From the NCBI GenBank assembly GCA_020161575.1, contig JAIUNR010000008.1, forward strand, positions 29,195-93,194: DNA of 64,000 nt, given 5' to 3'. Positions within the stretch are counted from its first letter, which is position 1. Each line of letters begins with the position of its first letter. Shown here piece by piece: positions 47,352 to 63,308 of this stretch. The DNA is from Pseudomonadota bacterium. GTDB taxonomy: Bacteria; Pseudomonadota; Alphaproteobacteria; Rhizobiales; Beijerinckiaceae. The notes beneath the pieces were generated by a model, which saw only the letters and a program-made list of their open reading frames with translations, did not search any database and was not told where the DNA came from. A program made the translations under genes and the position numbers.

Positions 47352-47579
47352 ATGAAACATTCCAACATCATCGCGCTGACCGAGAACGACCTTGATGCCG
47401 TCAGCGGCGGCACGCTGACCTTCGGCAATGGCACCACTGGAGGGTATGGCTCCAACGGCGCTTTCGCGCGCGGCTCCGCGAGCTGGACGAACAGCAGCGG
47501 CTCGTTCTCCACCAGCGTATCGTTCAACTTCGATGGTGGCAGCGGCTTCAACAAGGTCTCCTTTACCTGGAGGTTCTGA
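47352..47579 (+). CDS. Double-glycine leader precursor peptide C (20-aa leader + 55-aa Gly/Ser/Phe-rich core)
   Basis: MKHSNIIALTENDLDAVSGG|TLTFGNGTTGGYGSNGAFARGSASWTNSSGSFSTSVSFNFDGGSGFNKVSFTWRF; GGAGAG RBS; own terminator. Confidence 0.87.
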   Translation: MKHSNIIALTENDLDAVSGGTLTFGNGTTGGYGSNGAFARGSASWTNSSGSFSTSVSFNFDGGSGFNKVSFTWRF

Positions 47580-47623
47580 TTTTAGCAGGGCTTCCCGCCC
47601 CGCGATTCCTGCCTTTGCCTGCG

Positions 47624-47658
47624 AACCACGCATCCCATGCGATGCGTGGTTTTTTCTT
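47624..47658 (+). terminator. Intrinsic terminator of peptide C
   Basis: AACCACGCATC-CCATGC-GATGCGTGGTT, a perfect 11-bp stem followed by TTTTCTT. Confidence 0.82.
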
Positions 47659-47976: not shown

Positions 47977-49194
47977 ATGAATTTCCACACACAAAAAGAC
48001 CAGACAAACTCCAGGATCATCTCCAGCTTCGGCGATATCGAAGCCCTGCCGGACCGTGACATGCCGGTGGTGACGATGTTCAGCGGCGGGCTGGACAGCA
48101 CCTATCTCCTTCTGCGCCTCCAACAGGCAGGCTTCCGCAATGTCGAGGCTGTCGCGGTCAATATGGGCGAGCCGATCGACGCGGCCGCGATGAGCGGGAC
48201 CGCCGCGCGTTTCGGCGCGCGCTTCACCTATCTCGAAGCGCGCGATCTCTTCATCGAGAAGGCCGTCAAGCCCGCGATCCGCGCGCAGGCGAAGTATCAT
48301 GGCATGTATCCGCTCAGCAGTTCGCTGAGCCGCCCGGTGATCGCGGAAACCGTTGTCCGCCATGCCTCGGCGCTCGGCTCCACCCTGCTGCTGCATACCG
48401 CCAATCTCTCGCAGAACAGCCTGCCGCGCCTCAACAACAGCATTGTCCGCTTCGGCTTCAAGGGCGCTTTCGGCAGCCCCTACGTCTATTCCGCGCTCTC
48501 GCGCGAGCGCAAGGCGGAAGCTCTCGCCGGAGCCGGCCTGAGCTTCATCGCCGATCGCCGGCTGAGTGGTGACGAAAACCTCTGGTGCCGCGAATTCGAA
48601 TCCGGCCCGCTCGATGACCCCGAGGATTTCGTGATTCCCGAGGACAGTTTCCGCTGGACCCGCAAGGGCGAGCCTCCCGCGCCTGAAGAACTGGCGCTTC
48701 GCTTCGAAGATGGCGCGCTGGTCGCGGTCGATGGCAAGCCGGTCGCGCTCATCGACGCAATCGCCGCGCTCAACACGCGGGTCGGCAGGTTCGGTTTCGG
48801 TCGTTATGTCGGGCTCGAACATATCGCGAGCGGCGAGAAGGTGCTGGAGGTGCGCGAGGCGCCTGCCGCGATGATCATCATGGACGCCCTGCGCTTGCTC
48901 GAATGCGCCTCGCTGAGCGCCGAGGCGATCGCGCTCAAGCAGAAGCTGGAGCAGGATTGGGTGCAGGAAGCCATTGCCGGGCGTTGGGGCGGCAAGGTCC
49001 ATGCCATGTGCGAGGCCGCGATCGCCTCGGCCCTCGAAGGTGTGGGCGGCTCCGTCACCTATATGCTCGATGCGCAGCGCTTCATGCCTCGCGCCATCGT
49101 CGCCGATCGGCCGGTCTATATCCGCGACCGCGATCTATGGGAGTACCAGAAGGCGAAATCCGGCTGCGCGGGCGCCATGACCGGCGGTGCCTGA
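47977..49194 (+). CDS. Argininosuccinate-synthase-like (PP-loop) enzyme, divergent paralog
   Basis: [11 protein letters not shown]-loop; [53 protein letters not shown] are collinear with ArgG, but [13 protein letters not shown] replaces HGATGKGNDQVRF. Confidence 0.85.
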
Positions 49195-49212
49195 ATGACC
49201 GGCGGCGCCTGA
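49177..49212 (+). repeat. 18-bp tandem duplication at the ArgG-like stop
   Basis: ATGACCGGCGGTGCCTGA (49177-49194) followed immediately by ATGACCGGCGGCGCCTGA (49195-49212); one mismatch. Confidence 0.85.
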
Positions 49213-49232: not shown

Positions 49233-50609
49233 TCACGGGGCGCGCCAGCTTTCCGGCCCCGACCAATCCAGCAGACGCTCGAAGCGGCGGGCATGGGCGA
49301 GCAGGCGTGCCTCCTCGCCGCGCCGCCCGACAAGCTGGACGCCAACGGGCAGGGAGTCGAACATTCCAACCGGCACGACGGCGACAGGGTGCCCCGTGAG
49401 CGAGAACGGGGCCGTGAGCCCGATCGTCGCCAGCGCATAGGGCACGCGCCGCCCCTCGATATCGATCATGCGCGCCCGCCCCCATTTCGGCGTGTCGAGA
49501 TGCGGGTAGGCCGCCGTGGCCGAGACCGGCAGCACAAGCGTGTGATGGCTTTCCAGCAGGCGGTCGAGCGCCGCGCCCAGCGCCTCACGCTCTGCCAGCG
49601 CATCGGCGAGCAGCCGCGGCGAGCCCCAGAGACCACGCGCGATATCGCGCTGGATGGGCTTGGTGGCCGAACGGATCACGCCATAAGCCGCCATGGCCTT
49701 GCCGAGCCAGACGGGGATGGTCGCCGCGCCTTCGCTGCCGAGAATGCGCCCGTAAGCCCGCCAGGCGGCGCGGAAATCCCACGCCTCCGGCTGAATGGGG
49801 GCGATCGGCCAGCCCGCGCCTTCCAGCCGGGCGCGCAGATGGGCGAGCGCGGCTTTGGTGCGATGGCACAAGGGAAGACCGGGAAAATCCGTCCAGAGCG
49901 CGATGCGCAGATCCGCGCCTTCTTCCGGCAGGGGCGCGGCGCGCGGCGCGCCTTCGAGTGCCGCCAGCCCCGCGGCAAGGCAGGTAGTCGAGCGCCCGAT
50001 CAGGCCGATACTCTGGAAGCGCGAGAGCGGATGGCCGGAGCCGGGAAGCGGCGGGATATGTCCGTCGAGCGGGAAGCGTCCCGCCGTGCATTTGAGCGCG
50101 GGAACGCCGCAGAAATGTGCAGGAATGCGTGTGGAGCCCGCGAGATCGCTCGCGAGGTCGATGTCCGAGAATCCCAGCGCGACCGCCGCGCCCCCGCCCC
50201 CGCTGCTGCCGCCGCTGGTGCGGCTCTCGTCCCAGGGATTGCTGGTGACGCCGAAAATCGGGCTTCGGCATTGCACATCACCCGCGAGCGGCGATGTGTT
50301 GGTCTTGCCGATGAGGATGCCGCCCGCGGCCCGGATGCGCGCGACCGCGGCGGCATCCTTCTCCGGCACGTGATCCTTGAGCGGCGGATAGCTCGCGGTG
50401 GAGCGCAGGCCGGCGGTCTCGAACGTATCCTTCACGCTGACGATCAGGCCGGAGAGCGGGCCTGATGCCGGTGTTTCGGCCATGGCCAGGGCCTCGGCGC
50501 GGTTCTCCGTCACGATGGCGTTGCAGCGCGGGTTGAAACGGTCGATCCGTGCGAAGGCTGTTTCGAGACGCTGGCGGATGGCCGGTTCGGGAACGGGGAA
50601 ATCGGTCAT
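49233..50609 (-). CDS. Amidase-signature family enzyme
   Basis: GPLSGLIVSVKD (Lys), GKTNT, NPWD...GGSSGGGGAAVA (cis-Ser), SDLAGSTRIPAHFCG (nucleophilic Ser), PVGVQLVG. Confidence 0.92.
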   Translation of the reverse strand: MTDFPVPEPAIRQRLETAFARIDRFNPRCNAIVTENRAEALAMAETPASGPLSGLIVSVKDTFETAGLRSTASYPPLKDHVPEKDAAAVARIRAAGGILIGKTNTSPLAGDVQCRSPIFGVTSNPWDESRTSGGSSGGGGAAVALGFSDIDLASDLAGSTRIPAHFCGVPALKCTAGRFPLDGHIPPLPGSGHPLSRFQSIGLIGRSTTCLAAGLAALEGAPRAAPLPEEGADLRIALWTDFPGLPLCHRTKAALAHLRARLEGAGWPIAPIQPEAWDFRAAWRAYGRILGSEGAATIPVWLGKAMAAYGVIRSATKPIQRDIARGLWGSPRLLADALAEREALGAALDRLLESHHTLVLPVSATAAYPHLDTPKWGRARMIDIEGRRVPYALATIGLTAPFSLTGHPVAVVPVGMFDSLPVGVQLVGRRGEEARLLAHARRFERLLDWSGPESWRAP

Positions 50610-50621: not shown

Positions 50622-51362
50622 TCAGGCTGGTCGGAGAAGGTCGCGCAGACGCGCGGCCACCGCCTCGGGCTGCGTATCGAGGAAGAAATGGTCGCCCTCG
50701 AACCAGTGGATCCCGCCGGGTCGCTCCGTCTCGGCGAGCCAGGGCGCGACCCGATCGGGCGGGACGATCGGATCGTTTGTGCCGGCAAAAACGTCTATCG
50801 GCTGGTCGAGCCGGATGCCCGCCCGGTAGGCATAGGTTTCCACGATGGCGAAATCGGCGCGGATCGCCGGCAGCACCAGCGCCATCAGCTCGGCATGGGC
50901 GAGAATGGCGGCGGGCGTGCCGTTATAGCGCCGGAGCTCCTCGATCAGCTCGGCATCCGGCAGGGTATGGAGCTGTTCGCGTGCCTGCCGGACGCTCGGC
51001 GCCTGACAGCCCGAGACGATGAGCCTTTCCGGCACCCTCAGGTGCATGAGCTTGCTAAAGCGCGCGAGTTCGAACGCCACCAGTGCGCCGAGGCTATGGC
51101 CGAAAAACGCGGCGGGCAGATCGCCCTCCCCCGCGATGACTTCCGCAAGCTGGCGCACGAGCGGGGCGAGGCGATCGATCGCCGGCTCGCCCATGCGCGT
51201 GCCGCGGCCGGGCAGCTGGATCGCGCAGACCTCGATTTCAGGCCCGAGCATCGGCTGCCAGTTGAGATAGGCGGCCGCGTTGCCGCCGGCATAGGGGAAA
51301 CAGAAAAGGCGCAGCCGCGCCTTGGCCGTGGGACGGCGCAGGAGCCAGTTGCCCGTTCTCAT
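50622..51362 (-). CDS. Type II (editing) thioesterase
   Basis: RLFCFPYAGG, IQLPGRGTR, FFGHSLGA, LPAIRADF, FEGDHFF. Confidence 0.94.
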   Translation of the reverse strand: MRTGNWLLRRPTAKARLRLFCFPYAGGNAAAYLNWQPMLGPEIEVCAIQLPGRGTRMGEPAIDRLAPLVRQLAEVIAGEGDLPAAFFGHSLGALVAFELARFSKLMHLRVPERLIVSGCQAPSVRQAREQLHTLPDAELIEELRRYNGTPAAILAHAELMALVLPAIRADFAIVETYAYRAGIRLDQPIDVFAGTNDPIVPPDRVAPWLAETERPGGIHWFEGDHFFLDTQPEAVAARLRDLLRPA

Positions 51363-52981
51363 GCCGGGCCGCTCCCGCAGGCGAGCTTTCCATCCACGAG
51401 TTTGACGATGCGGTCCGCCATGGCGAAATAGGCTTCGTCATGCGTGATCGCGATCACGGTCTTGCCGCGTGCCTTGAGTTCGGGAAGCAAGGTCTCGTAG
51501 AAGACGCGGCGGAAGGCGGGGTCCTGATCCGCCGCCCATTCGTCGAAGAGATAGATATCGCGATCCTCGAGATAGGCGGAAACCAGCGCGAGGCGCTTGC
51601 GCTGGCCCGTGGAAAGATCGAGCGTGGAGAAGGCGCCGTCGCGGATCGTGACCTTGTGATCCATTTTCAGCGCGGCGAGATAGCCGGCCGCGCGCGCCGC
51701 CGTGGCATCGTCTCCGGCATCCATGACCTGCTCGAACAGGTGGAAATCCGAGAAGACGGCCGAGAAATGCTGGCGATAGGCGTCGCGGTTGGCCTCCGTC
51801 ACCTCGACGCCACGAAAGCGGATCGTGCCCGCCTCGGGCGTGAAAAGGCCGAGCAGGATCATCGCGAAGGTGGATTTGCCGCTGCCATTGCCGCCCACGA
51901 GGAACAGCGTCTCGCCCGGCGCGATCTCGAGATCGAGCGGGCCGAGCACGAAGCCCGGCTCGTCGCCCCCGCCGGAATAGCGGTGCCGGATGCCGGAAAA
52001 AGCAAGGATCGGCGCTCCGCTGGCCGGGAATAGCGCTTTGGCCGGTACCTCGGGCTCGATGCGCGCGAGATCGCCGCTGATCTGCTCGATGCGTCCGAGC
52101 GCGATCCCCGCCTGCCTTACGACGGGGAGAATGATGATCAGCTCCGTCACCGGGCGGATGAGGTAGAGCAGGATCAGCGTCACGGCGACGATTTCGCTGC
52201 TGGGGATCGCGAGCAGGCGCGGCAGGCCGAAGACAAAGGCGCCGATCACGACATAGAACAGGATATTCGCCGTGTTTGTCACCCGGATATAGGTGCGCAT
52301 GCTCGCGACGAAATCGGTTTTCACGCCCTCCGTCACGGGGGCGATGACCTTTTCGAGAAAGCGCTCCGAACGCGCGCGGTTGAGCTGAAGCTCGCGGCTG
52401 CCTTCGATCAGTGCGCGGAAATGGGTGTAGAGCGTGTCGATCTGCTGGCGGACGGCGGCGAGGCGCGAGAGCGGCCGGCGCTCCGCCAGCCGGAACAGCG
52501 TGACCCCGGCGACGAGGATCGCGATGAAGACCAGGAACAGCTTCGGCGAAAGGCCGAGAAGATAGGCGAAACACGCGATCAGGATGACAAGATTGCCGAT
52601 CATGATCGGCATGAACTGGAAGGCTGTCGTGAACGAATCCACGTCGCGCGTCAGGATGTTGAGGAGCGGCTGCCTGCCGAGCACCTGAAGCTTCGCCTGC
52701 GGGGTCGCGAGGATACGCCGGCTCAGCGTCATCCTCAGATGCGCGATCGAGAGCTGGTTGAGCTCAAGAAGCCGCGTTTCCGAATAGATCTTCGCCACGA
52801 GATGGATAAGACAGCAGGCGAAGAACAGCAGACCAAGCAACGCCTCGGGTTTTTCCGCCGCCAGCGCCCGGCTGATGAGAACCGCGATTCCCGCTGCCGA
52901 AAGGCCGCTGACCAGCCCCGCCAGCGTCGCCACCAGCACGCGCAGCCGGAACTGGCGGAAGAGATAGAGGAACAGGTTCAT
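51359..52981 (-). CDS. Cyclic-peptide export ABC transporter (SyrD/PvdE/YojI family)
   Basis: TM domain plus GGNGSGKST, FSAVFSDFHLF, LSTGQRKRLAL, FDEWAADQDP. Confidence 0.93.
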   Translation of the reverse strand: MNLFLYLFRQFRLRVLVATLAGLVSGLSAAGIAVLISRALAAEKPEALLGLLFFACCLIHLVAKIYSETRLLELNQLSIAHLRMTLSRRILATPQAKLQVLGRQPLLNILTRDVDSFTTAFQFMPIMIGNLVILIACFAYLLGLSPKLFLVFIAILVAGVTLFRLAERRPLSRLAAVRQQIDTLYTHFRALIEGSRELQLNRARSERFLEKVIAPVTEGVKTDFVASMRTYIRVTNTANILFYVVIGAFVFGLPRLLAIPSSEIVAVTLILLYLIRPVTELIIILPVVRQAGIALGRIEQISGDLARIEPEVPAKALFPASGAPILAFSGIRHRYSGGGDEPGFVLGPLDLEIAPGETLFLVGGNGSGKSTFAMILLGLFTPEAGTIRFRGVEVTEANRDAYRQHFSAVFSDFHLFEQVMDAGDDATAARAAGYLAALKMDHKVTIRDGAFSTLDLSTGQRKRLALVSAYLEDRDIYLFDEWAADQDPAFRRVFYETLLPELKARGKTVIAITHDEAYFAMADRIVKLVDGKLACGSGPA

Positions 52982-52999: not shown

Positions 53000-54310
53000 T
53001 CAGGCCATCTGCCCCGCCGCGCCGCGCGCGACGAGATAGGGATAGGCGGGCGTCGTCAGCAGCACGCGCAGGCGGTTGAGGGCGGGATCGCCCGGATCGC
53101 GCCCGTAACCGCCCGCGCCCGAGGCGAGGATATCGGCCATGCGCGTCCGTCCGTCGCAGGCGGCGAAGACTTCCCTCACGCGCGGATCTGCCGGCTGCGG
53201 CGGCATGGGCAGGCGGGTCGGGCGGCTCGCCTCCTGATAGCGCGATTGCGGGTTGAGCACGAAATTCGTGGAGCTGCCTTGCGCGGGCATGAAGACCGTA
53301 TCCAGGAACTGCGCCACGATCTCGCGCTGCGTCTTGCGCGGATGGCGTGAATCCCGCCGCTGCACATAGAACCAGAGCATCGGCGATTTCTCGACCAGCA
53401 GCAGGTTGCTTACCTGCCAGCGATCGAGATCACCCAGCGTTTCGTAGCGTGCCCGCGCTGCGCCTTGCGGCAGGTCGATTTCCCACTCGATCTGCCCGGA
53501 AAGCTTGTCGAACTGGTTGATGCAGGGCTGGAGCAGTTGCAGCCCGGCGCCATGGCAAAGATCGCGCAGGGTCTCGACCGTGTAGCTGAATTCCACGGGC
53601 TGGAGCAGCGAATCCGCGACGGCCGCCTCGGGCAGGTCGCGTTGATGCACGAGGAAGTCGCGCATCGAGTTCTGCACTTCGAATCCCGCGACCAGCTCCA
53701 TGGTGATGGGCAGTTCGACATCCACCGCCGGCTTGCCATCCTGCCCGCCGAGGAGGCGGATCGCCTTCTGATACGCGGTGGTATGGGTGCGATGATAGTA
53801 ATTATAGACCATCAATTCGAGGATGCCGTCCGGTTTCAGCCCGCGCGCGAGGGCGTTGAGCGGCACCGCCGGATCGGCGTTGTGATGGATGACGCCGGTG
53901 CAGATGACGTGATCGAAGCGCGCCTCGTGGCGCACTTCGTTGAGGCTCGCCTCCTCAAGCGTCAGGTTGGTGATGCCGAGCTGGGCGGCGATATCGCTGC
54001 ACACTTCGAGCGAACGCGTCGAGACATCGGTGCCGAGCACGCGCGCCTGGGGGTATTTCAGCGCGGTCAGCACCGCCTGGTTGGTGCCGCAGCCGGCGAC
54101 CCAGATCTCGCATTCGGGCGCCAGCCGCGCATGGGTGAAATCGCCGATCTCCTGATTGACGAAAGCCGGCCAGAAGGCGCCATCGCCCGCCTTCGGCAGC
54201 AGCAGCGGCAGCCATGGATAGTTGAACCGGCTGTAGAAATCACGGTTGAGGGCATCGACATCGCGCGCCGAGGTCGCCGCGCCGATGTTGAAGGAAACGG
54301 AATCACGCAT
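53000..54310 (-). CDS. Class I SAM-dependent methyltransferase with extended C-terminus
   Basis: IWVAGCGTNQA motif I variant, GTDVS, FDHVICTGVIHH, LKPDGILELMVY; its start overlaps the NRPS-PKS stop. Confidence 0.85.
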   Translation of the reverse strand: MRDSVSFNIGAATSARDVDALNRDFYSRFNYPWLPLLLPKAGDGAFWPAFVNQEIGDFTHARLAPECEIWVAGCGTNQAVLTALKYPQARVLGTDVSTRSLEVCSDIAAQLGITNLTLEEASLNEVRHEARFDHVICTGVIHHNADPAVPLNALARGLKPDGILELMVYNYYHRTHTTAYQKAIRLLGGQDGKPAVDVELPITMELVAGFEVQNSMRDFLVHQRDLPEAAVADSLLQPVEFSYTVETLRDLCHGAGLQLLQPCINQFDKLSGQIEWEIDLPQGAARARYETLGDLDRWQVSNLLLVEKSPMLWFYVQRRDSRHPRKTQREIVAQFLDTVFMPAQGSSTNFVLNPQSRYQEASRPTRLPMPPQPADPRVREVFAACDGRTRMADILASGAGGYGRDPGDPALNRLRVLLTTPAYPYLVARGAAGQMA

Positions 54311-57300
54311 GGGTGGCTTGCCTGCTGTCGTGGTTTGTCCGGTTGAGCGCCTCGGCGATGCGGGCGGCATGGACCGGTTCGAGGATGGAATAATGATCCG
54401 CCCGCAAGGTCGCGGCGTGGAAGGCGCCGGCCGCGACCTGACGCCATGTCCTCACCATCTCCTCGCGGATCGCGGCGGGGCGTTCGCGCCCGTCCGGCTC
54501 CTGCCCGGCCACGAAGAGCACGCTCTGCGCGACAAGGCGCTGGCGCGGCCGATAGCCCACGAGACTCCGGGAATTGCGCGCGCAGAGCGCGAGGATCTTG
54601 CGGATATAGGGGTGCGCGCCCGGATCCGGCCCTTCCGCGAGTTTCGGATCGAGCCTGCGACGCAGCTGCATTTCCGCGAGGAAGCTTTGCTTGAGCGCTT
54701 CGTCATCCTCGCGCAGCCGGTCGTCGAAGACGGGCGGATCGATCAGCACCAGCCGCGCGACGGTCGGCGATTCGCCGGTCAGAAGCCGGGCGATCTCATA
54801 GGCGATGGCGGCGCCGTAGGACCACCCCGCGAGGCGGATGTTCCCGGTGCGGGCGATATCGCGGATCCCCGCGAGATAGGCGCGCGCCGCCGCTTCGATC
54901 GTCCGGGGCGCGGCTGCGCCGCTCTCCAGATCCGGGTCCTCGATGCCATAGACCGCGCTGGCGGGATCGATCGCGCGCACGAGATCACGGTAGCATAGTA
55001 GATCCCCGCCCACGGGGTGGATGAGGAAGACGGGTTCTCCGCCGGCCCCCGCGCGTAGCAGGCGCACGCAATGGCCCGACGCGGCGCTTTCCTTCGATGC
55101 CCCGCCCGCCGCCGCCTCAAGCAGGTCGGCGAGCGAGAAATCCACCGGCAGCGCCGGCAGGGCGAGCCGGAGATCGAGGGCGGTATTGAGCGCATCGACA
55201 AGATCGAGCGCGGCGAGGGAATCGCCGCCAAGATCGTAGAAGGAGATGTCGCGCGCCGGGTCCGCCGTTCCGGTGAAGCGGGCGTAGATTTCGGCGATCA
55301 CGGCCTCGGGCGCACGTCCTTGCGAGGCGGACGCAGCCTCCGTGATATGGCGCTCCGACAGGAGCTTGCCGATTTCCTCGGGTGGCAGCGGCGAGACGAC
55401 GAGACGCGGCAGGCCGAGCGTGAGCGCGGTCTCGAGGATTTCCCAGCCTTCCTCCGTCGAGATCGCGTTGAGATCGGCGCGCGTGGCGAGATCGGCGAGT
55501 GCATTGCGCTGGCCGCCCAGCGCGGCGGACATGCCGATGCCCCGCCAGGCGGGCCAGTTGATGCTGATGACATCCGGCCCGCCCTCGCCCTTCGCCAGCG
55601 CGAGCGCGTCGAGGAAGGCATTCGCGGCGCTATAGCCATATTGTCCCGCGACCGGAATCAACGCCGAGAGCGAGGAGCACAGAATGATCGCGTCCTTGGT
55701 CAGCGGCGCGAGATGACGCATCAGCAGCCGCGCGCCCGTCACCTTCGCCGCCAGCGCCGCCTGGAGCATCGCCGGATTCTTGAGCGCGATCAGCCCGCCG
55801 CCGGCATCGCCCGCGGCATGGATGATGCCCGCGAGGGAGCCGAATTCCGCGCGGATCCGTTCGGCCAAGGCCGCTACGGCGGCCGGATCGGCGATGTCGC
55901 CGTCGATGCGGATGACGCGCGGATCGAGATCAGCCATACCCGCCCGGCGGGAAAAGGCGATGACCCGCCGCCCCGGCGCCTCAAGCAGACGGGTGATGAT
56001 CGCGCGGCCGATTCCGCCTCCGCCGCCGGTGACGAGATAGACGCCATCCGGTCGCAGCCGCGAGGGCAGCGTCGCGGGAATTTCCACCCGCTGGAGCCCA
56101 TGCTGCCAGATATGGCCGGCACGCAGGGCGAGTGGGCCTTCCGCCTCGAAGCCCTCTCTGCCTGCGAGGCAGGCCAGCATGGCGTCGTCCGGCGCTTCGG
56201 GCAGATCAATCAGGCGGAGACGGATCCGGGGATATTCGACGCGGATCGCGCGCATCGGCGCCGCGAGCATCTCCGCCCAGGCGCCCTCGCCCCGTTCGAA
56301 GGCGCCGTGCGTGAGCAATGTGAGATCAAGCGAACGCTTGCCGAAGGCCATCTCCCAGCCCTGAACCAGCACCATCAGCGTGGTGAAAAGCGCTTCGGCC
56401 CCTTCGCCATCCGGCTCGGGCAAGGGCAGGGTCTGCACGAGATGCATGTCTCCTTCGGCCGGGCAGTGGCGGCGCAAGAGATCCCCAACGGCTTGGGGAT
56501 TGGCCGGTGGCGCGTCCGGGAGGCGGAATGTCCTGATACCGGGCGCGCGCAGGGCCGCCTCGATCGGGGCGATGGCGCCGTTCTCGCCGCCGCGCGGAAT
56601 GCGCCGCAGGCGCGCCCAACCCGGCTGATGGAACCACGCGGCGCGTTCCTGCCGTGCGATGGCGGGCTTTCCGGCGCCTTGTCCGGCCTCGAGCCTGAAT
56701 GGCGCGAGATCGAACGGATATTCCGGCATGTCCCAGGGAATCGGGGCATGGGGCGCTTTCGGCAGCAGATGGGCCGATCCCCCCTGAAGCCAGAAGGCGG
56801 CGATCTGCATCGGCGTACCGCCCGGCGGCTGCGCGCCTGCTTCCGCCGGGGCGCAGGCGGTGGGGGCCAGCCCCTGAAGCAGGGCGATGGCCTCGTCGGC
56901 GCTGGAAACGACAAGCGCGCCGCGCCAGGAATCATCCGAGGCATTGCGCAGGCACCAGGCGGCGACGCCCGCGAGATGATGCGGATTGTCCTCGAGATAG
57001 CCGGCAAGATGCTGTGCGAGCGCGCGGAGCGCGCTTTCGCTGCGCGCGCCGAGCAGCAGGCAATGATGCGCGTGGCGGATGGTGGCTGGCGCCGCCGGAG
57101 GGGCCTGCCCGAGAATGACATGGGCATTGGTACCGCCCATGCCGAAGCTGCTCACGCCGGCATAGGGGCGCGTGCGCGGCCATTCGAGGGCGCGGGTCGC
57201 GACCTTGAACGGCGTCGCGGCGAAGTCGATGCCCGGATTGGGCGCGTCATAGCCGAGGCTGGGCGGAATCACGCCGTGATAGCGCGCCAAAGCCGCGCGG

Positions 57301-60300
57301 ATCAGCCCGGCGAGCCCCGCAGCGCTGCCCAGATGCCCGATCTGGCTCTTGAGCGCGCTGATCGCGCAGCTTCCGGGTTCGGTATGGGGGGCGAAAGCCT
57401 GCGTGAGCGCGGCGATCTCGATGGGATCGCCGAGGGCGGTCGCGGTGCCGTGGGTCTCGACATAGCCGATCTCGGCCGGCGAGATCGCGGCCCTCTCCAT
57501 CGCCGCCGCGACGACCGCCGCCTGTCCGGCGACGGCGGGAGCGGTGAACGCTACCTTGGCGCGCCCGTCATTGTTGATGGCGCTGCCCTTGATGACGGCG
57601 AGAACGCGGTCCGAATCCGCCAGGGCGGCGGCGAGCGGTTTGAGCACGACCAGCGCGTAGCCATTGGCGGGAACGGTGCCGCCGGCCTTGTCCGAGAAGG
57701 GCCGGCAATGCCCGTCCTTCGAGAAGATATGGCCGGGCTGGTAGGCATAGCCTTCGAGCACGTCGGCGTTGATGGTCGCGCCGCCGACCACGCACAGATC
57801 CGCCTCGCCCGCGCGCAGTTGCGCCAGGGCGAGATGAACCCCCACGAGCGAGCTTGAACAGCCGGTCTGGACCGTGAAGGCCGGGCCGCGCAGATCGAGC
57901 AGATGGGCGATGCGCGTAGCGAGAAAGTCCTTCTCGTGCATCAGCGAGAGGTTGAACGGCGTCGTGCCCGGCGGACGGGCATAGCCACCGTCGAGCAGGT
58001 GATGGTGGTGGCTGTTCTCGCTGCTCGAAAGGATCAATCCCACGCGCGCATGGCTGCGGTCTCGCCAGTAGCCCGCATTTTGCAGCGCATGGACCGTTCC
58101 CATCAGCAAATGGCGCTGCTGCGGGTCCATCACCAGCGCGTCGGCGGCGCTGATCCCGAAATAGCTGGGGTCGAAATCGAAGACGCCTTCAAGGCTCGCG
58201 CTTGCCTTGACCCAGCCCTCACGATCGGCGTCGCCGACCGTGATCCCTGGCTCGCCCCTGCGCGTCCTATCCCAGAATTCGGCGGGTGAGTTGGCGCCCG
58301 GAAACCGCAAGGTCATGCCGACAAGCGCGACATCGCCCTCGGCGTTGCCGGCGGCGCCGGCCTCGCGCGCTGCCGGCAGCGCAACCGGGGCCTGCCCCGC
58401 GATGAAGGCGGCGAGATCGTCCAGCGTGGGATGCGCGAAGAAGTCGACAAGGTTGAGCCCTTCGAAACGCTGCTTCAGCCCGGCATGGATCTTCATCAGC
58501 GCGAGCGAACCGGCGCCGGCCTCGAAAAAATGCTGATCGTTCTCGATGGGATAGCCGAGAACCGCCTCGAAGGCGCGGCCGAGTTCGGCGGCGATCGCCT
58601 CGGCCTGCGTTTCCGCCGCCGGGACGGCGGCAGGGCGGACCGGCGAGAGGTCCGGCGTGTCGTCGAGACGTCGGCGCAGGGCGGCACGATCGACCTTGCC
58701 GTTCTCGTTGAGCGGCAGCGTATCAAGAACGCGGATGCGGCGCGGGACCATGAAATCAGGCAGGCGCGCGGCGAGATGCGCCCGCAGCATCGCTTCGAGC
58801 GCGCTCGCCTCCCCGGAGGCGGCGGGGAGCACGAATCCCGCCAGCGCCTGGCCGCCGCCCGCCTCCTCGCTCACCAGCACCGCCGCGCCGTGCACGCCTT
58901 CATGCGCCGCGAGCGCGGCTTCGACCTCGCCCAGCTCGATGCGATAGCCGTTGACTTTGACCTGATCGTCGAAGCGGCCGAGGAAAACCAATTCGCCATC
59001 CGCCCGGCGCATCACCTTGTCGCCCGTACGGTAGAGCCTTCCGGCGCCTCCCGCGAAGGGATCGGCGACGAAACGCGCGGCGGTAAGGTTCGGCCGGGCG
59101 AGATAGCCGTCGGCCAGCCCCGCGCCGCCGATATACAATTCGCCGGCTTCGTCCGTCGCGCAGGGTTCCATCTCCTCGTCGAGGATGTGGAGGGTAGTGT
59201 TGCGGATGGGGCGGCCGATCGGCACCGCCTCTTCCGGCGCAATCGCATCCGCCGCCGTGAAGAAGAAGGTCGAACAGCCGACCGTGGTTTCCGTCGGCCC
59301 GTATTCGTTGACGAAGGTGGCTTCCGGCAGCAGCGCGGCCCAGCGCGCCGCGAGCGCGCCAGCCCATTGCTCGCCGCCCACGACCAGCACATGCGGTGTC
59401 TGGCTTGGCGCGCGGCTTTCGGCATAGGCGATGGCGCTGGCGAGATGCGCGGGAGTGAGCTTGAAAAGGCGCGGTTCCGCCTCGAAAAGGGCGGCGACGA
59501 TCGCCTCGATATCGTTGCCGTCCGGGCTGGGAAGATCCACCCGCCTGCCGGTGATGAGCGGCGCGACAAGGCTCGTGACCGTCGCGTCGAAATTGAGCGA
59601 GGTCGTCACCAATGCGGCGCGGATCGCGGGGAGGAAATAGGCGTCGCGCGCGTGGCACAGGTAATTGACCACCGCGCGATGGGGCAGCACCGTGCCTTTG
59701 GGCTGCCCGGTGGAACCGGATGTATAGATGACATAGGCCTCCCCCTTCGCTTTCATGGCATGCGGGAAGGGGCTGGCGGGCGCAGCGGCGAGGTCGGCCT
59801 CGGTTTCCGGCGTATCGATCAGCAATACCGGGCAAGGTGGCCGGGAGAGCGCGCCGCTCAGGCCAACACGCGAGACGATGAGCCGGAGCCCGGAATCGCG
59901 GATCATGAAATCGAGCCGTGCGGCGGGATAGGCGGGGTCGAGCGGGACATAGGCCGCGCCGGCTTTGAGGATCGCCAAAAGCGTGATGACCATTTCCGGC
60001 GAGCGGTCGAGCGCGATGCCGATGCGACCGCCCGGCCCGCCGGCGCGGGCCGCGATGAGATGGGCAAGCCTGTCGGAGGCTTCATCGAGCGCGCGATAGC
60101 TCAGGAGGCGGTCTCCGGCCTGCAGCGCGGGCGCGTCCGGCGTCCGGCGCGCCTGTTCGCGGAACAGGGTTTCGATGCGCGCATCCTCGGGAAAGGGCAT
60201 GGCGGTCGCGTTGCGCTCCCGCATCACCGCCTCGCGCGCCTCGGCGAGGCAGGTGGCGAGCGTTTGGGCGAGCGGCGCCTCTGGCGTGCTTGAGGCCCGC

Positions 60301-63300
60301 GCGATCAGGTCGGCATAGGCGCGCGCGAGACAGGCGATTGTTTCAGCGCTGAAAAGCGAGCTGTCATATTCCACGAGGCCGGCGAGACGCGCGCCTTCGG
60401 CATGGAGGAAGAAGGTCAGCGGGAATTTGGCGTCGCAGCGCGTCACCCAGCGGAAACGGGTGTCGAGCCCTTCAAGGTGCAAACGGGTGTGATCGGTGTT
60501 CTCGAGCACGAACATCGCCTCGAAAAGCGGGCCCGTGACGCCCGCCTGCCGCTGGTCGTCGGAGATGTGATCATAGCCGACGAGGTGGTTTGCGCGCAGC
60601 GTTTGCGCGCTCTCTTCCGCCTTCTCCATCCATTGCGCGAGGCTCATGCCGGGGGAAGGCGCGTAACGCGCGACGAGCGTATTGACGAACATGCCCGCCG
60701 CCCGGTCGAAATCGCGATGCGGCCGGGTTCCGAAGGGCACGCCGAGGGCGATCCCGGGCTTGCCGGCGTGATGCGCGAGCAGCGCCGCGAAAAGCCCCGA
60801 GAGCAGCGAGAACGGCGAAATCGACCGCGCCGCGCAGGTGCGCTCGAAAGCCGAGGCAACCGCAGGAGGAAGATCGAAGGCGTGATAGCGCCCGCTCATG
60901 GCATGTGGGAGATAGGCCGTGCCCGCCCCGCGCGGAAGGTCGGCGAGGCTTTCGCGCCAGAAAGCGCGTTGGCGGATGTAATCGGGTGTCCCGGTCAATG
61001 CGCGCTGCCACTCGGCATAGGCGCCGTAGCCGTGCGCCGGCAGGGATTCGGGGAGGCTCGCGCCTGATTTCAGCGCGGCGTAATCTCGGCTGATCTCCTC
61101 GAGCAGGATATTGAGCGACCAGCCATCGACCGCGATATGATGGAGGCACAGCAGCAGGGTGACCTTGCCCGCGGCGCCCGCGACAAGGGCGCCGCGCATC
61201 AGTGGCGCCTCGGCGAGATCGAAGGGCCGGGCGAAGAAATCCTGCTCGAAGCGCTGCCGCGCGACGGGAGCGAGATCGCGGCGCAGATCGAGCCCCAGCG
61301 GGGCGGCGGGCATTTCCTCCGCCCAAACCGTACCTTCCGCCTCGCGATAGCGCGTGCGCAGCGCGCCGTGGCGTTTCACGAGCGCCTTAAGGGCACCCTC
61401 CAGCGCCGGGATATCCGGCATGGCATCAAGATCGAAGACGAGCGGGATCGAATAGGCGGTCGAGCCGGGCTGCATGGCCTGCGCAAGCCACAGGCGGCGC
61501 TGTTCGCCCGAGACTTCGTAACGCGTGGGCGAAACCGCCGGCAAGGCGGGGAGCGCCTGCGCCTCCCCCCCTTCCTTTTGCGCCTTGAGGCTGGCGGCGA
61601 GATCGGAAAGGCTGGCCGCCTCGATCACCGCCTTGAGCGGGACCGCGATCCCGAGCCGCGCCGAAAGCGTGTTGGCGAGCTGGCTCGCTTTCAGCGAATC
61701 GCCGCCGAGCGCGATGAACCCCGCCGAGGGGTCGAGCGCGGCGCGACCGAGGATCGTGGCGCAATCCGCAAGGATCGCGCCGGTGAAAGCGTTGAGCGCT
61801 GCCGGGCTCGCCTGCCCTTCCCCGCCTGGTAGCTCCATGCCGGAACCCGCGAGCGCGGCGCGATCCACCTTGCCATTGGCGTTGATCGGCAGGGAATCGA
61901 GCTGAAGGAAACGATGCGGAATCATCGCCGCCGGCAGGGTTTCGGCCAGATGCGCGCGCAGGGCCGCCTGCGTCGTTGCCGCCTTGAGGACGAGATAGGC
62001 GCAAAGATCGCCCGCCACCAGCGCGAGCGCCGCGTGACGGATGGCGGGATGCGCGAGCAGCGCCTGCTCGATCTCGCCGAGTTCGATGCGAAAGCCGCGC
62101 AGCTTGATCTGGTCGTCGATGCGCCCGGCATGATGGAGATTGCCGGTCTCGTCGAACCATCCGAGATCGCCGGTGCGGTAATAGAGCCGCGCGGTGCCGT
62201 CCGCTTCCCGAAGCGTGACGAATTTCTCCGCGGTAAGGTCGGGCCGGCCGATATAGCCGCCGACAACCCCGCTGCCGCCGATGAGGATCTCGCCGGTGCC
62301 GTTTTCGCCTTCGCCGAGCCGGATGGGCGTATCACGCAGAGGGCGGCCGATCGGCAGCGATGGAACGCCCGCCTGCGCACGCAGCGCCGCCTGGTCAATT
62401 TCGTGGAAGGTCGCGAAGGTCGTCGCTTCCGTGGGGCCATATATGTTGACGAGGCGGCACCTCGCTTCGGGATGCGCGGCAAGGAAGGCGCGCACCAGGG
62501 CGCCGTTCGCGCTCTCGCCGCCGAACAGCACCTCGCGCATGGCGAGGATGATGTCGGGCCGCTCGACAAGGAGGAGGTTGAACAGACCTGTCGTGATGAA
62601 GGCGACATCGACCGGCGTTTCCGCCAGACTTTCGGCGAGACGCGGCAGATCGAGCATTTCTTCCTGCGGGATCGAGACAAGCGCGGCGCCGTTGAGCAGC
62701 GCGCCCCAGATCTCGAAGCTCAGAGCATCGAAGGCCGGATTCGAGAAATGGGCGACGCGGTCGCCGGGCGAGATCGTCACGTAATCGGGCCGCAAAGCCA
62801 TGCGGATCAACCCGGCCTGCCCCACGCGCATGCCCTTGGGCGTGCCTGTCGTGCCCGAGGTATGGAAGATGCAGGCGGGTCTTGCGGCATCGACCGGCGG
62901 CAGCACGCCGCTATCGGGAACGAGCGCCGCGAATTCGGCGGGCGCCAGCACGCGGCAGGGCGCAAGTGGCGCCTTCCGCGCCGAGATGAGAAGCGTGGCC
63001 TCGCAGATCGCGAGGATATCCGCGAGGCGCTTTTCGGGCATCCGCGTGCCGAGCGGCAGGAAGATTCCGCCTGCCTTGAGCACGCCGAGCACGAGGGTCA
63101 GTAGCGCCCAGGAGCGCTCGCGTTCGAGCGCCACGACATCGCCGGGGCGGATGCCCGCCGCGATCAGCCGGCGGGCGCAAAGCTCGGATTCGCGCGCCAG
63201 ATCGGCATAGGTGAAGCGCGCCGCCCCTTCGATGAAGGCGATGCGTCCGGGCGCCGCCGCGACCTGCGCGGCGAAGAGGCCGAGCAGCGATTGCTGGTTC

Positions 63301-63308
63301 CGGGTCAT
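54303..63308 (-). CDS. Hybrid NRPS-PKS megasynthase, A-T-C-A-T-KS-KR-T-TE (about 3001 aa, no AT domain)
   Basis: A1 (HTSGTTGTPKG, YGPTE, YRTGD), T1 (LGGDSL), C (HHIAVDG), A2 (YTSGSTGQPKG, YRTGD), T2 (AGAGSL), KS (QTGCSSSL, ETHGTAT, KSQIGH), KR (VTGGGGGIG, YSAAN), ACP (LGGDSL), TE (GWSYG, ADHY). Start MTRNQ at 63308 overlaps the upstream stop. Confidence 0.95.
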   Translation of the reverse strand: MTRNQQSLLGLFAAQVAAAPGRIAFIEGAARFTYADLARESELCARRLIAAGIRPGDVVALERERSWALLTLVLGVLKAGGIFLPLGTRMPEKRLADILAICEATLLISARKAPLAPCRVLAPAEFAALVPDSGVLPPVDAARPACIFHTSGTTGTPKGMRVGQAGLIRMALRPDYVTISPGDRVAHFSNPAFDALSFEIWGALLNGAALVSIPQEEMLDLPRLAESLAETPVDVAFITTGLFNLLLVERPDIILAMREVLFGGESANGALVRAFLAAHPEARCRLVNIYGPTEATTFATFHEIDQAALRAQAGVPSLPIGRPLRDTPIRLGEGENGTGEILIGGSGVVGGYIGRPDLTAEKFVTLREADGTARLYYRTGDLGWFDETGNLHHAGRIDDQIKLRGFRIELGEIEQALLAHPAIRHAALALVAGDLCAYLVLKAATTQAALRAHLAETLPAAMIPHRFLQLDSLPINANGKVDRAALAGSGMELPGGEGQASPAALNAFTGAILADCATILGRAALDPSAGFIALGGDSLKASQLANTLSARLGIAVPLKAVIEAASLSDLAASLKAQKEGGEAQALPALPAVSPTRYEVSGEQRRLWLAQAMQPGSTAYSIPLVFDLDAMPDIPALEGALKALVKRHGALRTRYREAEGTVWAEEMPAAPLGLDLRRDLAPVARQRFEQDFFARPFDLAEAPLMRGALVAGAAGKVTLLLCLHHIAVDGWSLNILLEEISRDYAALKSGASLPESLPAHGYGAYAEWQRALTGTPDYIRQRAFWRESLADLPRGAGTAYLPHAMSGRYHAFDLPPAVASAFERTCAARSISPFSLLSGLFAALLAHHAGKPGIALGVPFGTRPHRDFDRAAGMFVNTLVARYAPSPGMSLAQWMEKAEESAQTLRANHLVGYDHISDDQRQAGVTGPLFEAMFVLENTDHTRLHLEGLDTRFRWVTRCDAKFPLTFFLHAEGARLAGLVEYDSSLFSAETIACLARAYADLIARASSTPEAPLAQTLATCLAEAREAVMRERNATAMPFPEDARIETLFREQARRTPDAPALQAGDRLLSYRALDEASDRLAHLIAARAGGPGGRIGIALDRSPEMVITLLAILKAGAAYVPLDPAYPAARLDFMIRDSGLRLIVSRVGLSGALSRPPCPVLLIDTPETEADLAAAPASPFPHAMKAKGEAYVIYTSGSTGQPKGTVLPHRAVVNYLCHARDAYFLPAIRAALVTTSLNFDATVTSLVAPLITGRRVDLPSPDGNDIEAIVAALFEAEPRLFKLTPAHLASAIAYAESRAPSQTPHVLVVGGEQWAGALAARWAALLPEATFVNEYGPTETTVGCSTFFFTAADAIAPEEAVPIGRPIRNTTLHILDEEMEPCATDEAGELYIGGAGLADGYLARPNLTAARFVADPFAGGAGRLYRTGDKVMRRADGELVFLGRFDDQVKVNGYRIELGEVEAALAAHEGVHGAAVLVSEEAGGGQALAGFVLPAASGEASALEAMLRAHLAARLPDFMVPRRIRVLDTLPLNENGKVDRAALRRRLDDTPDLSPVRPAAVPAAETQAEAIAAELGRAFEAVLGYPIENDQHFFEAGAGSLALMKIHAGLKQRFEGLNLVDFFAHPTLDDLAAFIAGQAPVALPAAREAGAAGNAEGDVALVGMTLRFPGANSPAEFWDRTRRGEPGITVGDADREGWVKASASLEGVFDFDPSYFGISAADALVMDPQQRHLLMGTVHALQNAGYWRDRSHARVGLILSSSENSHHHHLLDGGYARPPGTTPFNLSLMHEKDFLATRIAHLLDLRGPAFTVQTGCSSSLVGVHLALAQLRAGEADLCVVGGATINADVLEGYAYQPGHIFSKDGHCRPFSDKAGGTVPANGYALVVLKPLAAALADSDRVLAVIKGSAINNDGRAKVAFTAPAVAGQAAVVAAAMERAAISPAEIGYVETHGTATALGDPIEIAALTQAFAPHTEPGSCAISALKSQIGHLGSAAGLAGLIRAALARYHGVIPPSLGYDAPNPGIDFAATPFKVATRALEWPRTRPYAGVSSFGMGGTNAHVILGQAPPAAPATIRHAHHCLLLGARSESALRALAQHLAGYLEDNPHHLAGVAAWCLRNASDDSWRGALVVSSADEAIALLQGLAPTACAPAEAGAQPPGGTPMQIAAFWLQGGSAHLLPKAPHAPIPWDMPEYPFDLAPFRLEAGQGAGKPAIARQERAAWFHQPGWARLRRIPRGGENGAIAPIEAALRAPGIRTFRLPDAPPANPQAVGDLLRRHCPAEGDMHLVQTLPLPEPDGEGAEALFTTLMVLVQGWEMAFGKRSLDLTLLTHGAFERGEGAWAEMLAAPMRAIRVEYPRIRLRLIDLPEAPDDAMLACLAGREGFEAEGPLALRAGHIWQHGLQRVEIPATLPSRLRPDGVYLVTGGGGGIGRAIITRLLEAPGRRVIAFSRRAGMADLDPRVIRIDGDIADPAAVAALAERIRAEFGSLAGIIHAAGDAGGGLIALKNPAMLQAALAAKVTGARLLMRHLAPLTKDAIILCSSLSALIPVAGQYGYSAANAFLDALALAKGEGGPDVISINWPAWRGIGMSAALGGQRNALADLATRADLNAISTEEGWEILETALTLGLPRLVVSPLPPEEIGKLLSERHITEAASASQGRAPEAVIAEIYARFTGTADPARDISFYDLGGDSLAALDLVDALNTALDLRLALPALPVDFSLADLLEAAAGGASKESAASGHCVRLLRAGAGGEPVFLIHPVGGDLLCYRDLVRAIDPASAVYGIEDPDLESGAAAPRTIEAAARAYLAGIRDIARTGNIRLAGWSYGAAIAYEIARLLTGESPTVARLVLIDPPVFDDRLREDDEALKQSFLAEMQLRRRLDPKLAEGPDPGAHPYIRKILALCARNSRSLVGYRPRQRLVAQSVLFVAGQEPDGRERPAAIREEMVRTWRQVAAGAFHAATLRADHYSILEPVHAARIAEALNRTNHDSRQATHA

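What the first reader, a model, noticed from the sequence alone, without database searches (positions are those of the whole stretch)
47977..49194. Argininosuccinate-synthase paralog with a rewired aspartate-binding loop
Seen: the PP-loop and citrulline-side motifs (S-x-D-x-N-L-W, E-S-G, R of the loop) are retained, but canonical TGKGNDQVRF is [11 protein letters not shown] and ENR...KSRGVYE is EHI...KVLEVRE. Established: ArgG adenylates a ureido oxygen and condenses it with the Asp amine; the Thr/Asn/Asp loop binds Asp. Inference: a secondary-metabolism ligase forming a guanidine, amidine or amide with a different amine. It lies between the peptide locus and the NRPS-PKS operon, so either could be its client; the terminator after peptide C favours the NRPS-PKS.
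Basis: partly seen in the sequence, partly recalled or inferred. Interest (0 to 1): 0.75.

Follow-up and report, generated by a model that had tools for sequence, protein, structure and literature searches.

The report
Nitrile-synthetase-type ArgG paralog beside Asn-NRPS-PKS
The gene is not a new amine ligase: it is a bacterial member of a recently characterised enzyme family that uses ATP to dehydrate a primary amide to a nitrile, and it sits next to an assembly line that builds an asparagine-containing product.

Summary
The ORF 47977-49194(+) is real and the motif observation is correct. The PP-loop and most citrulline-side motifs are kept. The aspartate loop TGKGNDQVRF reads [11 protein letters not shown], and ENR..KSRGVYE reads EHI..KVLEVRE.

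The chemical interpretation is not supported. The protein passes NCBIfam NF038212 (argG_rel, 537.6 bits, cut-off 425) and fails every true-ArgG model. It is 63% identical over residues 15-396 to the crystallised "nitrile synthetase" ArtA (PDB 9LEH/9LEI, E 1e-153). It keeps ArtA's three amide-contacting residues at the same numbers (Q146, S197, D199).

According to the literature, ArtA/NitB only dehydrate an amide to a nitrile with ATP. No second amine is needed, which explains the lost aspartate site. The genome has a genuine argG elsewhere, and none of 60 relatives has this gene.

Among 83 bacterial homolog loci, most are a cassette with an amino-acid-type 2OG dioxygenase and an EamA exporter. 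About 20 lie near NRPS or adenylation genes. None is linked to a PCAT or a double-glycine peptide.

Here the neighbouring NRPS-PKS has an Asn-specific A domain. Orthologous clusters elsewhere lack both this gene and the amidase. The verdict is a new member of a known kind. The substrate is unproven, and the Asn carboxamide is the best guess.

The parts
47977..49194 (+). ArtA-type (argininosuccinate-synthetase-like) nitrile synthetase homolog, 405 aa
   Evidence: NF038212 scores 537.6 bits against a cut-off of 425, and the true ArgG models are all below their cut-offs. PDB 9LEI/9LEH 'nitrile synthetase' matches at E 1e-153 over residues 15-396. It falls in a 99% SH-aLRT clade with ArtA.
48082..48099 (+). 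PP-loop ATP pyrophosphatase motif SGGLDS (residues 36-41)
   Evidence: Invariant in the family alignment and shared with true ArgG.
48394..48435 (+). Loop [14 protein letters not shown] (residues 140-153), which replaces the ArgG aspartate loop HGATGKGNDQVRFE and contains Q146
   Evidence: Alignments are. Q146 is named as an amide-interacting residue of ArtA in PMC13060819. The column is invariant.
48565..48606 (+). Motif [14 protein letters not shown] (residues 197-210), containing S197 and D199
   Evidence: S197 and D199 are ArtA's other amide-interacting residues. Both are invariant in 16 homologs.
48814..48864 (+). Motif [17 protein letters not shown] (residues 280-296), which replaces ArgG VENRFVGMKSRGVYETP
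   Evidence: Alignment. E281, K288, R293 and E294 are invariant in the family.
47623..47652 (+). Intrinsic-terminator-like hairpin plus T-run, between peptide C and the nitrile-synthetase gene
   Evidence: 12-bp stem with 6 GC pairs, followed by TTTTTTCTTG.
47352..47579 (+). Double-glycine-leader peptide C (75 aa), the upstream neighbour; probably not the client
   Evidence: ORF. No family hit. No look-alike near any of 83 homolog loci.
49233..50609 (-). Amidase-signature enzyme, convergent with the nitrile-synthetase gene (stop codons 38 bp apart) and last gene of the NRPS-PKS operon
   Evidence: PF01425 at 4e-70. Only generic amidase models match, all below cut-off. Absent from orthologous NRPS-PKS clusters.
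50622..51362 (-). Type II thioesterase
   Evidence: PF00975. 48-57% identical orthologs in L091 and L094.
51359..52981 (-). Cyclic-peptide-type ABC exporter
   Evidence: TIGR01194 scores 433.7 bits, above its cut-off.
53000..54370 (-). SAM-dependent methyltransferase conserved in the NRPS-PKS cluster family
   Evidence: Pfam hit. Orthologs at 52-60% identity lie in Gemmobacter, Kiloniella and others, always next to the hybrid synthetase.
54303..63545 (-). Hybrid NRPS-PKS with domain order A-T-C-A-T-KS-KR-T-TE (the true start is probably near 63308)
   Evidence: Pfam domain order.
58695..60164 (-). Second adenylation domain with specificity code DATKVGEVGK (Asn-type). It supplies a primary carboxamide.
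   Evidence: The code was read from the sequence. The same code is found in the orthologs L091, L092 and L094.

Best explanation
The gene encodes an ArtA/NitB-type nitrile synthetase, a descendant of argininosuccinate synthetase.

Proposed mechanism:
- The enzyme still binds ATP through the PP-loop.
- It adenylates a carbonyl oxygen, but that of a primary carboxamide rather than the ureido group of citrulline.
- The aspartate site is gone, so no amine attacks. AMP is eliminated from the O-adenylyl imidate and the product is a nitrile (R-CONH2 + ATP -> R-CN + AMP + PPi).

What is shown: family membership, retention of the ATP motif, retention of the three amide-contacting residues, and loss of the Asp-specific residues.

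What is inferred: the reaction itself, by homology to ArtA, and the substrate. The most likely substrate is an Asn/Gln-type side-chain carboxamide. In this locus the best candidate is the asparagine handled by module 2 of the adjacent NRPS-PKS. The amide could be dehydrated on free L-Asn, giving a beta-cyanoalanine building block, or on the released Ile/Val-Asn-ketide. The product would then be exported by the operon's ABC pump.

My odds are about 0.85 that it is an amide-to-nitrile dehydratase, and about 0.45 that its substrate belongs to the NRPS-PKS pathway.
For: Family membership:
- NF038212 argG_rel scores 537.6 bits against a cut-off of 425. The ArgG equivalogs score 169 against 334 and 154.6 against 268.
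- PDB 9LEI/9LEH 'nitrile synthetase' matches at E 8.9e-154 over residues 15-396, with 63% identity.
- PMC13060819 identifies 9LEH as ArtA. It states that ArtA/NitB catalyse only the amide-to-nitrile step and that Q146, S197 and D199 contact the amide.
- Those three residues carry the same numbers in the window protein and are invariant in 16 bacterial homologs.
- In a tree rooted on the true ArgG, the window protein lies in a 40-row clade with ArtA at 99% SH-aLRT.

Extra, acquired gene:
- A genuine argG lies elsewhere in the genome (467.5 bits).
- The gene is absent from 60 relatives.

Precedents for the context:
- The A. lentulus ortholog, 90.5% identical to ArtA, lies 2.7 kb from a multimodular NRPS.
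- About 20 actinomycete homologs lie beside A-T, ATP-grasp ligase and thioesterase genes.

Local context:
- The A2 code DATKVGEVGK is Asn-type.
- A terminator separates the gene from peptide C.
- The gene abuts the 3' end of the NRPS-PKS operon, convergently and 38 bp away.
Against: - No activity data exist for any bacterial member.
- I could not read the ArtA and NitB primary papers, so ArtA's exact substrate (free Gln or an NRPS-bound or released intermediate) is unknown to me.
- The link to the NRPS-PKS rests on adjacency plus the Asn code only.
- Three orthologous NRPS-PKS clusters with the same Asn code work without this gene.
- A2 shows no code change that would suggest adaptation to a cyano amino acid.
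- The gene is convergent with the operon, not inside it.
- Every other bacterial member of its clade sits in an EamA/PF10014 cassette that points to free-amino-acid chemistry.
- Most ASS residues that I recall as contacting the amino-acid end of citrulline are retained (Y111, S116, N147, R151, E281). That would fit a free amino acid better than an acylated, chain-extended Asn.
Confidence: 0.6

Rival explanations
1. It is the same enzymology (amide to nitrile), but a stand-alone enzyme acting on a free amino acid such as L-Gln or L-Asn. In this reading it is a detached remnant of the widespread EamA-nitrile synthetase-PF10014 cassette and has no functional tie to either neighbouring locus.
For: - 59 of 83 bacterial homolog loci carry an adjacent PF10014-type dioxygenase and 57 carry an adjacent EamA exporter.
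- All nearest relatives, including Methylobacterium P0015 and P0004, are in that cassette.
- Sulfobacillus pY0017 has the analogous trio. Its only TauD-family gene is probably AEP14369, a characterised hydroxylase of free L-Gln and L-His (PMC11611013).
- Streptomyces 'NRPS-type' loci also carry TauD/PhyH dioxygenases and L-amino-acid ligases.
- The gene has its own transcription unit.
- Orthologous NRPS-PKS clusters lack it.
Against: - The window copy has lost both cassette partners.
- The genome has no PF10014 gene at all.
- No dedicated exporter is adjacent.
- It sits 38 bp from an operon that handles Asn and that has also gained an amidase, a second enzyme acting on amides.
Confidence: 0.28
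2. This is the first reader's model: an ATP-dependent ligase that adenylates a ureido or carbonyl group and condenses it with an amine other than aspartate, giving a guanidine, amidine or amide.
For: The ASS scaffold, the PP-loop and several citrulline-side residues are retained. No bacterial member has been assayed.
Against: - The closest characterised relative, at 63% identity and in the same clade, does dehydration without an amine.
- The residues that replace the Asp loop include ArtA's amide-contacting Q146. They are invariant between the fungal nitrile synthetase and this protein.
- No amine-supplying gene is conserved next to family members.
Confidence: 0.05
3. It is a RiPP tailoring enzyme that converts Asn/Gln side chains, or a C-terminal amide, of the neighbouring double-glycine-leader peptides into nitriles before export by the PCAT.
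For: It is co-oriented with peptide C and 400 bp downstream of it. The peptide C core is rich in Asn. Nitrile-bearing RiPPs now exist, though they are made by an unrelated AS-like enzyme (PMC13060819).
Against: - A strong terminator lies between peptide C and the gene.
- 0 of 83 homolog loci have a PCAT plus HlyD pair or a peptide C-like ORF.
- ArtA's active site is described as enclosed by two beta-strands, unlike the open site of the peptide-modifying PesC.
Confidence: 0.04
4. It is a second, divergent argininosuccinate synthase acting in arginine biosynthesis.
For: Pfam ASS domains are present.
Against: - It scores below all ArgG equivalog cut-offs.
- The Asp-binding Thr and Asp are replaced.
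- A true argG is present elsewhere in the genome.
- The gene is absent from 60 relatives.
Confidence: 0.01

Closest known systems
ArtA, ASS-like nitrile synthetase (PDB 9LEH/9LEI; Zeng et al., ACS Catal 2025, known to me only through PMC13060819), and its homolog NitB of auranthine biosynthesis (Kishimoto et al., JACS 2025)
   Same: 63% identity over about 380 residues. It has the same PP-loop and the same Q146/S197/D199 amide-contacting residues at the same numbering. The ArgG aspartate loop is replaced in the same way. It falls in the same 99%-supported clade. It also neighbours a non-ribosomal assembly line that uses an amide-bearing amino acid (Gln there, Asn here).
   Different: It is bacterial and sits in a region with plasmid-type genes, whereas ArtA is fungal. 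The assembly line is an NRPS-PKS with Asn rather than an anthranilate/Gln NRPS. The gene is convergent with the operon rather than inside it. Substrate and activity are untested.
EamA exporter - argG_rel - PF10014 2OG dioxygenase cassette (NCBIfam NF038212 members of Rhizobiales, Burkholderiales and actinomycetes)
   Same: Same protein family. The nearest bacterial sequences, at 64-67% identity, come from this cassette.
   Different: The window copy has neither the dioxygenase nor the EamA gene next to it, and the genome has no PF10014 gene at all.
Argininosuccinate synthase ArgG (for example T. thermophilus 1J1Z; the genome's own copy at G000:C7:108271-109461)
   Same: Same fold and same PP-loop adenylation chemistry on a carbonyl oxygen. 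Y111, S116, N147, R151, S197 and E281 occupy positions equivalent to those I recall as citrulline contacts.
   Different: Only 26% identity. The Asp-binding Thr and Asp are replaced (N143, S148). It fails the equivalog cut-offs. No second substrate is expected.
QueC/ToyM (preQ0/toyocamycin nitrile synthetases) and PesC (asparagine-synthetase-like peptide C-terminal nitrile synthetase)
   Same: These are PP-loop-type ATP-dependent enzymes that form a nitrile through an adenylated amide.
   Different: They belong to different families. They start from a carboxylate and also perform the amidation step. PesC has an open, peptide-accepting site.

Membership tests
ASS-like nitrile synthetase (ArtA/NitB; NCBIfam NF038212 argG_rel) | Scores above the curated cut-off of the family HMM | tested here: met
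   537.6 bits against a cut-off of 425, covering model positions 1-380 of 381.
ASS-like nitrile synthetase (ArtA/NitB; NCBIfam NF038212 argG_rel) | Full-length similarity to the crystallised, characterised member ArtA | tested here: met
   E 8.9e-154 over residues 15-396. 63% identity.
ASS-like nitrile synthetase (ArtA/NitB; NCBIfam NF038212 argG_rel) | Amide-contacting residues Q146, S197 and D199 | tested here: met
   All three are present at identical numbering and are invariant in 16 homologs. The residue list comes from PMC13060819.
ASS-like nitrile synthetase (ArtA/NitB; NCBIfam NF038212 argG_rel) | Intact PP-loop SGGLDS for ATP binding and adenylation | tested here: met
   Residues 36-41.
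ASS-like nitrile synthetase (ArtA/NitB; NCBIfam NF038212 argG_rel) | Groups with ArtA to the exclusion of true ArgG in a phylogeny | tested here: met
   A 40-row clade with ArtA at 99% SH-aLRT. The true ArgG outgroup sits on a very long branch.
ASS-like nitrile synthetase (ArtA/NitB; NCBIfam NF038212 argG_rel) | ATP-dependent conversion of a primary amide to a nitrile | not testable with these tools
   This needs an enzyme assay.
Canonical argininosuccinate synthase (ArgG) | Passes the ArgG equivalog HMM cut-offs | tested here: not met
   NF001770 scores 169.3 against 334, and TIGR00032 scores 154.6 against 268.2.
Canonical argininosuccinate synthase (ArgG) | Aspartate-binding loop T-G-K-G-N-D-Q-V-R-F | tested here: not met
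   It reads [10 protein letters not shown]. The Thr and Asp are replaced.
EamA - nitrile synthetase - PF10014 dioxygenase cassette | Adjacent PF10014 dioxygenase and EamA/DMT exporter | tested here: not met
   Neither lies next to the window gene. The genome has no PF10014 match. 59 and 57 of 83 other loci have them.
RiPP maturase of the neighbouring double-glycine peptide/PCAT system | Co-transcription with the precursor, and recurrent co-occurrence with a PCAT or precursor in relatives | tested here: not met
   A terminator lies at 47623-47652. 0 of 83 loci have a PCAT plus HlyD pair or a peptide C-like ORF.

The most novel reading that the evidence does not exclude
The enzyme turns the asparagine carboxamide of the adjacent NRPS-PKS pathway into a nitrile, either as a beta-cyanoalanine building block or on the finished Ile/Val-Asn-ketide. 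The result would be a bacterial peptide-ketide with a nitrile warhead. The co-acquired amidase would act on the same amide as a competing or gating step. This would be the first bacterial assembly-line product tailored by an ASS-like nitrile synthetase. It would also be a natural example of adding a nitrile to an otherwise widespread (Gemmobacter/Kiloniella-type) scaffold by plugging in a single gene.
Probability: 0.35. Interest if true: 0.55.

Novelty: new member of a known kind. Interest (0 to 1): 0.4.

Why it matters
The enzyme family was only characterised in 2025, in fungi. Bacterial members are still annotated "argininosuccinate synthase(-related)" and none has been assayed.

This copy is unusual within its clade. 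It has left the dioxygenase/exporter cassette and now sits against an Asn-incorporating NRPS-PKS. That gives a concrete, testable prediction: a nitrile-bearing peptide-ketide, or free cyano amino acid production.

Nitriles are valued protease-inhibitor warheads, so a small ATP-dependent amide dehydratase with a defined client would be useful for genome mining and biocatalysis.

For the scan, the main lesson is corrective. The "rewired aspartate loop" marks loss of the second substrate, not a new amine specificity.

Tried and rejected
1. A-domain codes at other loci. I tested whether NRPS-linked homolog loci in actinomycetes and Mesorhizobium carry Asn/Gln-specific A domains. The extracted codes (for example DAFMQGLTGK, DMIYLGLIYK, DAFLLGL-GK, DIWQSVHDGK) are not Asn/Gln-like. 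That would-be supporting pattern was not found. HSP-based extraction may also misplace positions 278-301.

2. First tree. It used a wrong outgroup ORF, a spurious long frame in L004. I repeated it with the real ArgG and cite only the rooted clade.

3. Other strains or samples. I looked for copies that might separate the gene from one of its neighbours. All seven contigs carrying the identical protein show the same arrangement, so this was uninformative.

4. Plasmid megablast. A search with the 23-kb region gave only short NRPS-motif hits.

5. Primary papers. Those on NitB (PubMed 40099513) and AEP14369 (PMC8478450) are not held. The ArtA paper is not in the library. ArtA's exact substrate therefore remains unknown to me.

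7. Structure prediction. I judged it redundant, given 63% identity to a solved structure, and did not run it.

Full report
**Observation.**
The ORF at 47977-49194(+) is a genuine 405-aa gene with an AGGGGAA ribosome-binding motif upstream. Pfam finds both argininosuccinate-synthase domains. I aligned it with the genome's own ArgG and with T. thermophilus ASS.
- The PP-loop SGGLDS (residues 36-41) is kept.
- The S-x-D-x-N-L-W and E-S-G motifs and the loop arginine (R151) are kept.
- HGATGKGNDQVRFE has become [14 protein letters not shown] (residues 140-153).
- VENRFVGMKSRGVYETP has become [17 protein letters not shown] (residues 280-296).

These replacement motifs are invariant in 16 bacterial homologs. 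They are a selected family signature, not drift.

**What it is.**
- NCBIfam places the protein in NF038212, "argininosuccinate synthase-related protein". It scores 537.6 bits against a cut-off of 425. All ArgG equivalog models fall far below their cut-offs.
- The Protein Data Bank holds two entries named "nitrile synthetase" (9LEI, 9LEH). They match at E 8.9e-154 over residues 15-396, with 63% identity.
- A 2026 preprint (PMC13060819) identifies 9LEH as ArtA, the ASS-like enzyme of Zeng et al. (ACS Catal 2025).
- It names Q146, S197 and D199 as the residues that contact the substrate amide. It also describes the ArtA site as enclosed by two beta-strands, unlike the open site of the peptide-modifying PesC.
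- The window protein has Q146, S197 and D199 at exactly those numbers.
- ArtA itself is fungal. The printed 9LEI sequence is 90.5% identical to an Aspergillus lentulus protein. That gene lies 2.7 kb from a multimodular NRPS. This is consistent with the auranthine pathway; that A. lentulus makes auranthine is from my own memory.

**Mechanism.**
ASS adenylates the ureido oxygen of citrulline, and aspartate's amine then displaces AMP. In this family the positions equivalent to the Asp-binding Thr and Asp of ASS are N143 and S148 (Tth T116 and D121). The glycine before the conserved Asn has become Q146, an amide contact.

With no amine bound, an O-adenylated carboxamide can only collapse by eliminating AMP, which gives a nitrile. 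So the lost aspartate loop reflects the loss of a substrate, not a change of amine.

Several positions that I recall as contacting citrulline in ASS (from UniProt/structure annotations, not checked by a tool) are retained: Y111, S116, N147, R151, S197 and E281. This hints that the substrate still resembles an alpha-amino acid. That step is inference.

**Genomic status.**
- The genome (3.19 Mb) has a bona fide argG on another contig (467.5 bits).
- None of 60 relatives, including 22 species of the same genus, has a homolog at E <= 1e-60.
- The identical protein occurs on seven public contigs with the same neighbours.
- The gene is therefore an acquired accessory gene.

**Family contexts.**
A scan of bacterial genomes returned at least 269 loci. 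I examined 83: 80 from the genome scan and 3 from the plasmid collection.
- 59 have an adjacent PF10014-type 2OG dioxygenase and 57 have an adjacent EamA/DMT exporter, often with an AraC regulator.
- The PF10014 partner's nearest solved relatives include L-isoleucine-4-hydroxylase, an enzyme that acts on a free amino acid.
- Sulfobacillus plasmid pY0017 has an analogous trio. Its dioxygenase is the plasmid's only TauD-family gene. It is very probably AEP14369, a characterised beta-hydroxylase of free L-Gln and L-His (PMC11611013).
- About 20 actinomycete loci lack these partners. They sit instead near A-T didomains, ATP-grasp L-amino-acid ligases, thioesterases, TauD/PhyH dioxygenases and efflux pumps.
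- A Botrytis homolog lies beside a nitrilase-family gene, an AlaX-like gene, a 2OG oxygenase and an MFS pump.
- No locus has a C39-peptidase ABC transporter with a HlyD partner, or a peptide C-like ORF.
- In a tree rooted on the true ArgG, the window protein lies in a 99%-supported clade. That clade contains ArtA, all sampled fungal members and the Rhizobiales/Sphingomonad cassette members.
- Within that clade it is the only bacterial member without the cassette partners. The genome has no PF10014 gene.

**Local context.**
- Upstream, peptide C (47352-47579) is followed by a strong terminator-like hairpin at 47623-47652. The gene therefore has its own transcription unit.
- Downstream, its stop codon is 38 bp from the stop codon of a convergent amidase. 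The amidase is the last gene of the operon NRPS-PKS - methyltransferase - cyclic-peptide ABC exporter - type II thioesterase - amidase.
- The hybrid synthetase has the domain order A-T-C-A-T-KS-KR-T-TE.
- I read the A-domain specificity codes directly from the sequence. A1 is DAFFLGITFK (aliphatic, Ile/Val-like). A2 is DATKVGEVGK, 9 of 10 identical to the classical Asn code DATKLGEVGK (from my own knowledge).
- The pathway therefore handles a primary carboxamide.
- Orthologous clusters in Gemmobacter, Kiloniella and a MAG were found through the methyltransferase (52-59% identity). They have the same architecture and the same Asn code. They carry a PPTase and in most cases MbtH, and have neither the amidase nor the nitrile-synthetase gene.
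- So in this lineage two enzymes that act on amides have been added at the end of a conserved Asn-containing scaffold pathway. That is suggestive, but it is adjacency evidence only.

**Verdict.**
- The interpretation as an amine ligase is not supported. The protein is best read as a bacterial ArtA-type nitrile synthetase (about 0.85).
- Its client is unresolved:
  - the Asn of the NRPS-PKS pathway, about 0.45;
  - a free amino acid with no link to the neighbours, about 0.3;
  - the double-glycine peptides, less than 0.05.
- It is a new member of a known kind.
My survey reproduces that result.

Noticed in passing
L001 8090-10986; L098 5986-10242; L007-L086 (match at about 10001 in each): A widespread cassette, uncharacterised as far as I could find: (AraC) - EamA/DMT exporter - ArtA-like nitrile synthetase - PF10014 2OG dioxygenase. 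It occurs in Rhizobiales (often on symbiosis or conjugative plasmids), Burkholderiales (Collimonas, Variovorax), Thiotrichaceae and many actinomycetes. The enzyme and dioxygenase are sometimes fused (660-aa proteins). It probably makes and exports a hydroxylated cyano amino acid.
   Followed up: partly
L087 5998-9193 (Sulfobacillus thermotolerans pY0017): An ASS-like gene, a TauD/TfdA dioxygenase and a DMT exporter lie in a row. The dioxygenase is the plasmid's only TauD-family gene and is probably AEP14369, the characterised L-Gln/L-His threo-beta-hydroxylase. If so, its physiological partner would be a nitrile-synthetase-like enzyme, pointing to beta-hydroxy-Gln as a pathway intermediate.
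   Followed up: partly
Tree (P0022-P0105 fungal rows): All sampled ascomycete homologs, including ArtA, nest inside an alphaproteobacterial clade at about 60-70% identity to Rhizobiales proteins. This suggests gene transfer from bacteria to fungi. Aspergillus section Nigri carries fusions to an AlaX-like tRNA-editing domain (P0088-P0093).
   Followed up: no
L097 10001-14484 (Botrytis): The fungal homolog is flanked by an AlaX-like gene, a CN_hydrolase (nitrilase family) gene, a 2OG oxygenase and an MFS transporter. A nitrilase next to a nitrile synthetase fits nitrile metabolism or self-protection.
   Followed up: no
L091, L092, L094 (Gemmobacter serpentinus, Kiloniella laminariae, a MAG): A conserved cluster family: a C-A-T-TE NRPS, an A-T-C-A(Asn)-T-KS-KR-T-TE hybrid and a 420-430-aa methyltransferase, followed by a PPTase, an ABC or MFS pump, a type II thioesterase and MbtH in varying combinations (L092 has only an MFS pump and the PPTase). 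It is orthologous to window 50622-64000. The methyltransferase has hundreds of homologs at 45-60% identity, so the scaffold is widespread. I do not know its product.
   Followed up: partly
window 49194-49233: The 38-bp spacer between the convergent stop codons holds a GC-rich inverted repeat (GGCGGC..GCCGCC) without a T-run. It may be a bidirectional terminator or RNA-stability element.
   Followed up: no
L046 and L056 (Streptomyces), match at about 10001-11185: The tblastn matches to the nitrile-synthetase homolog contain in-frame stop codons. These could be pseudogenes or sequencing errors.
   Followed up: no
L069 6897-12706; L044 5242-9871: Streptomyces homologs sit with a stand-alone A-T didomain, an ATP-grasp L-amino-acid ligase, a TauD or PhyH dioxygenase, a type II thioesterase and MatE/MFS pumps. 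These are candidate small cyano-amino-acid peptide clusters.
   Followed up: partly
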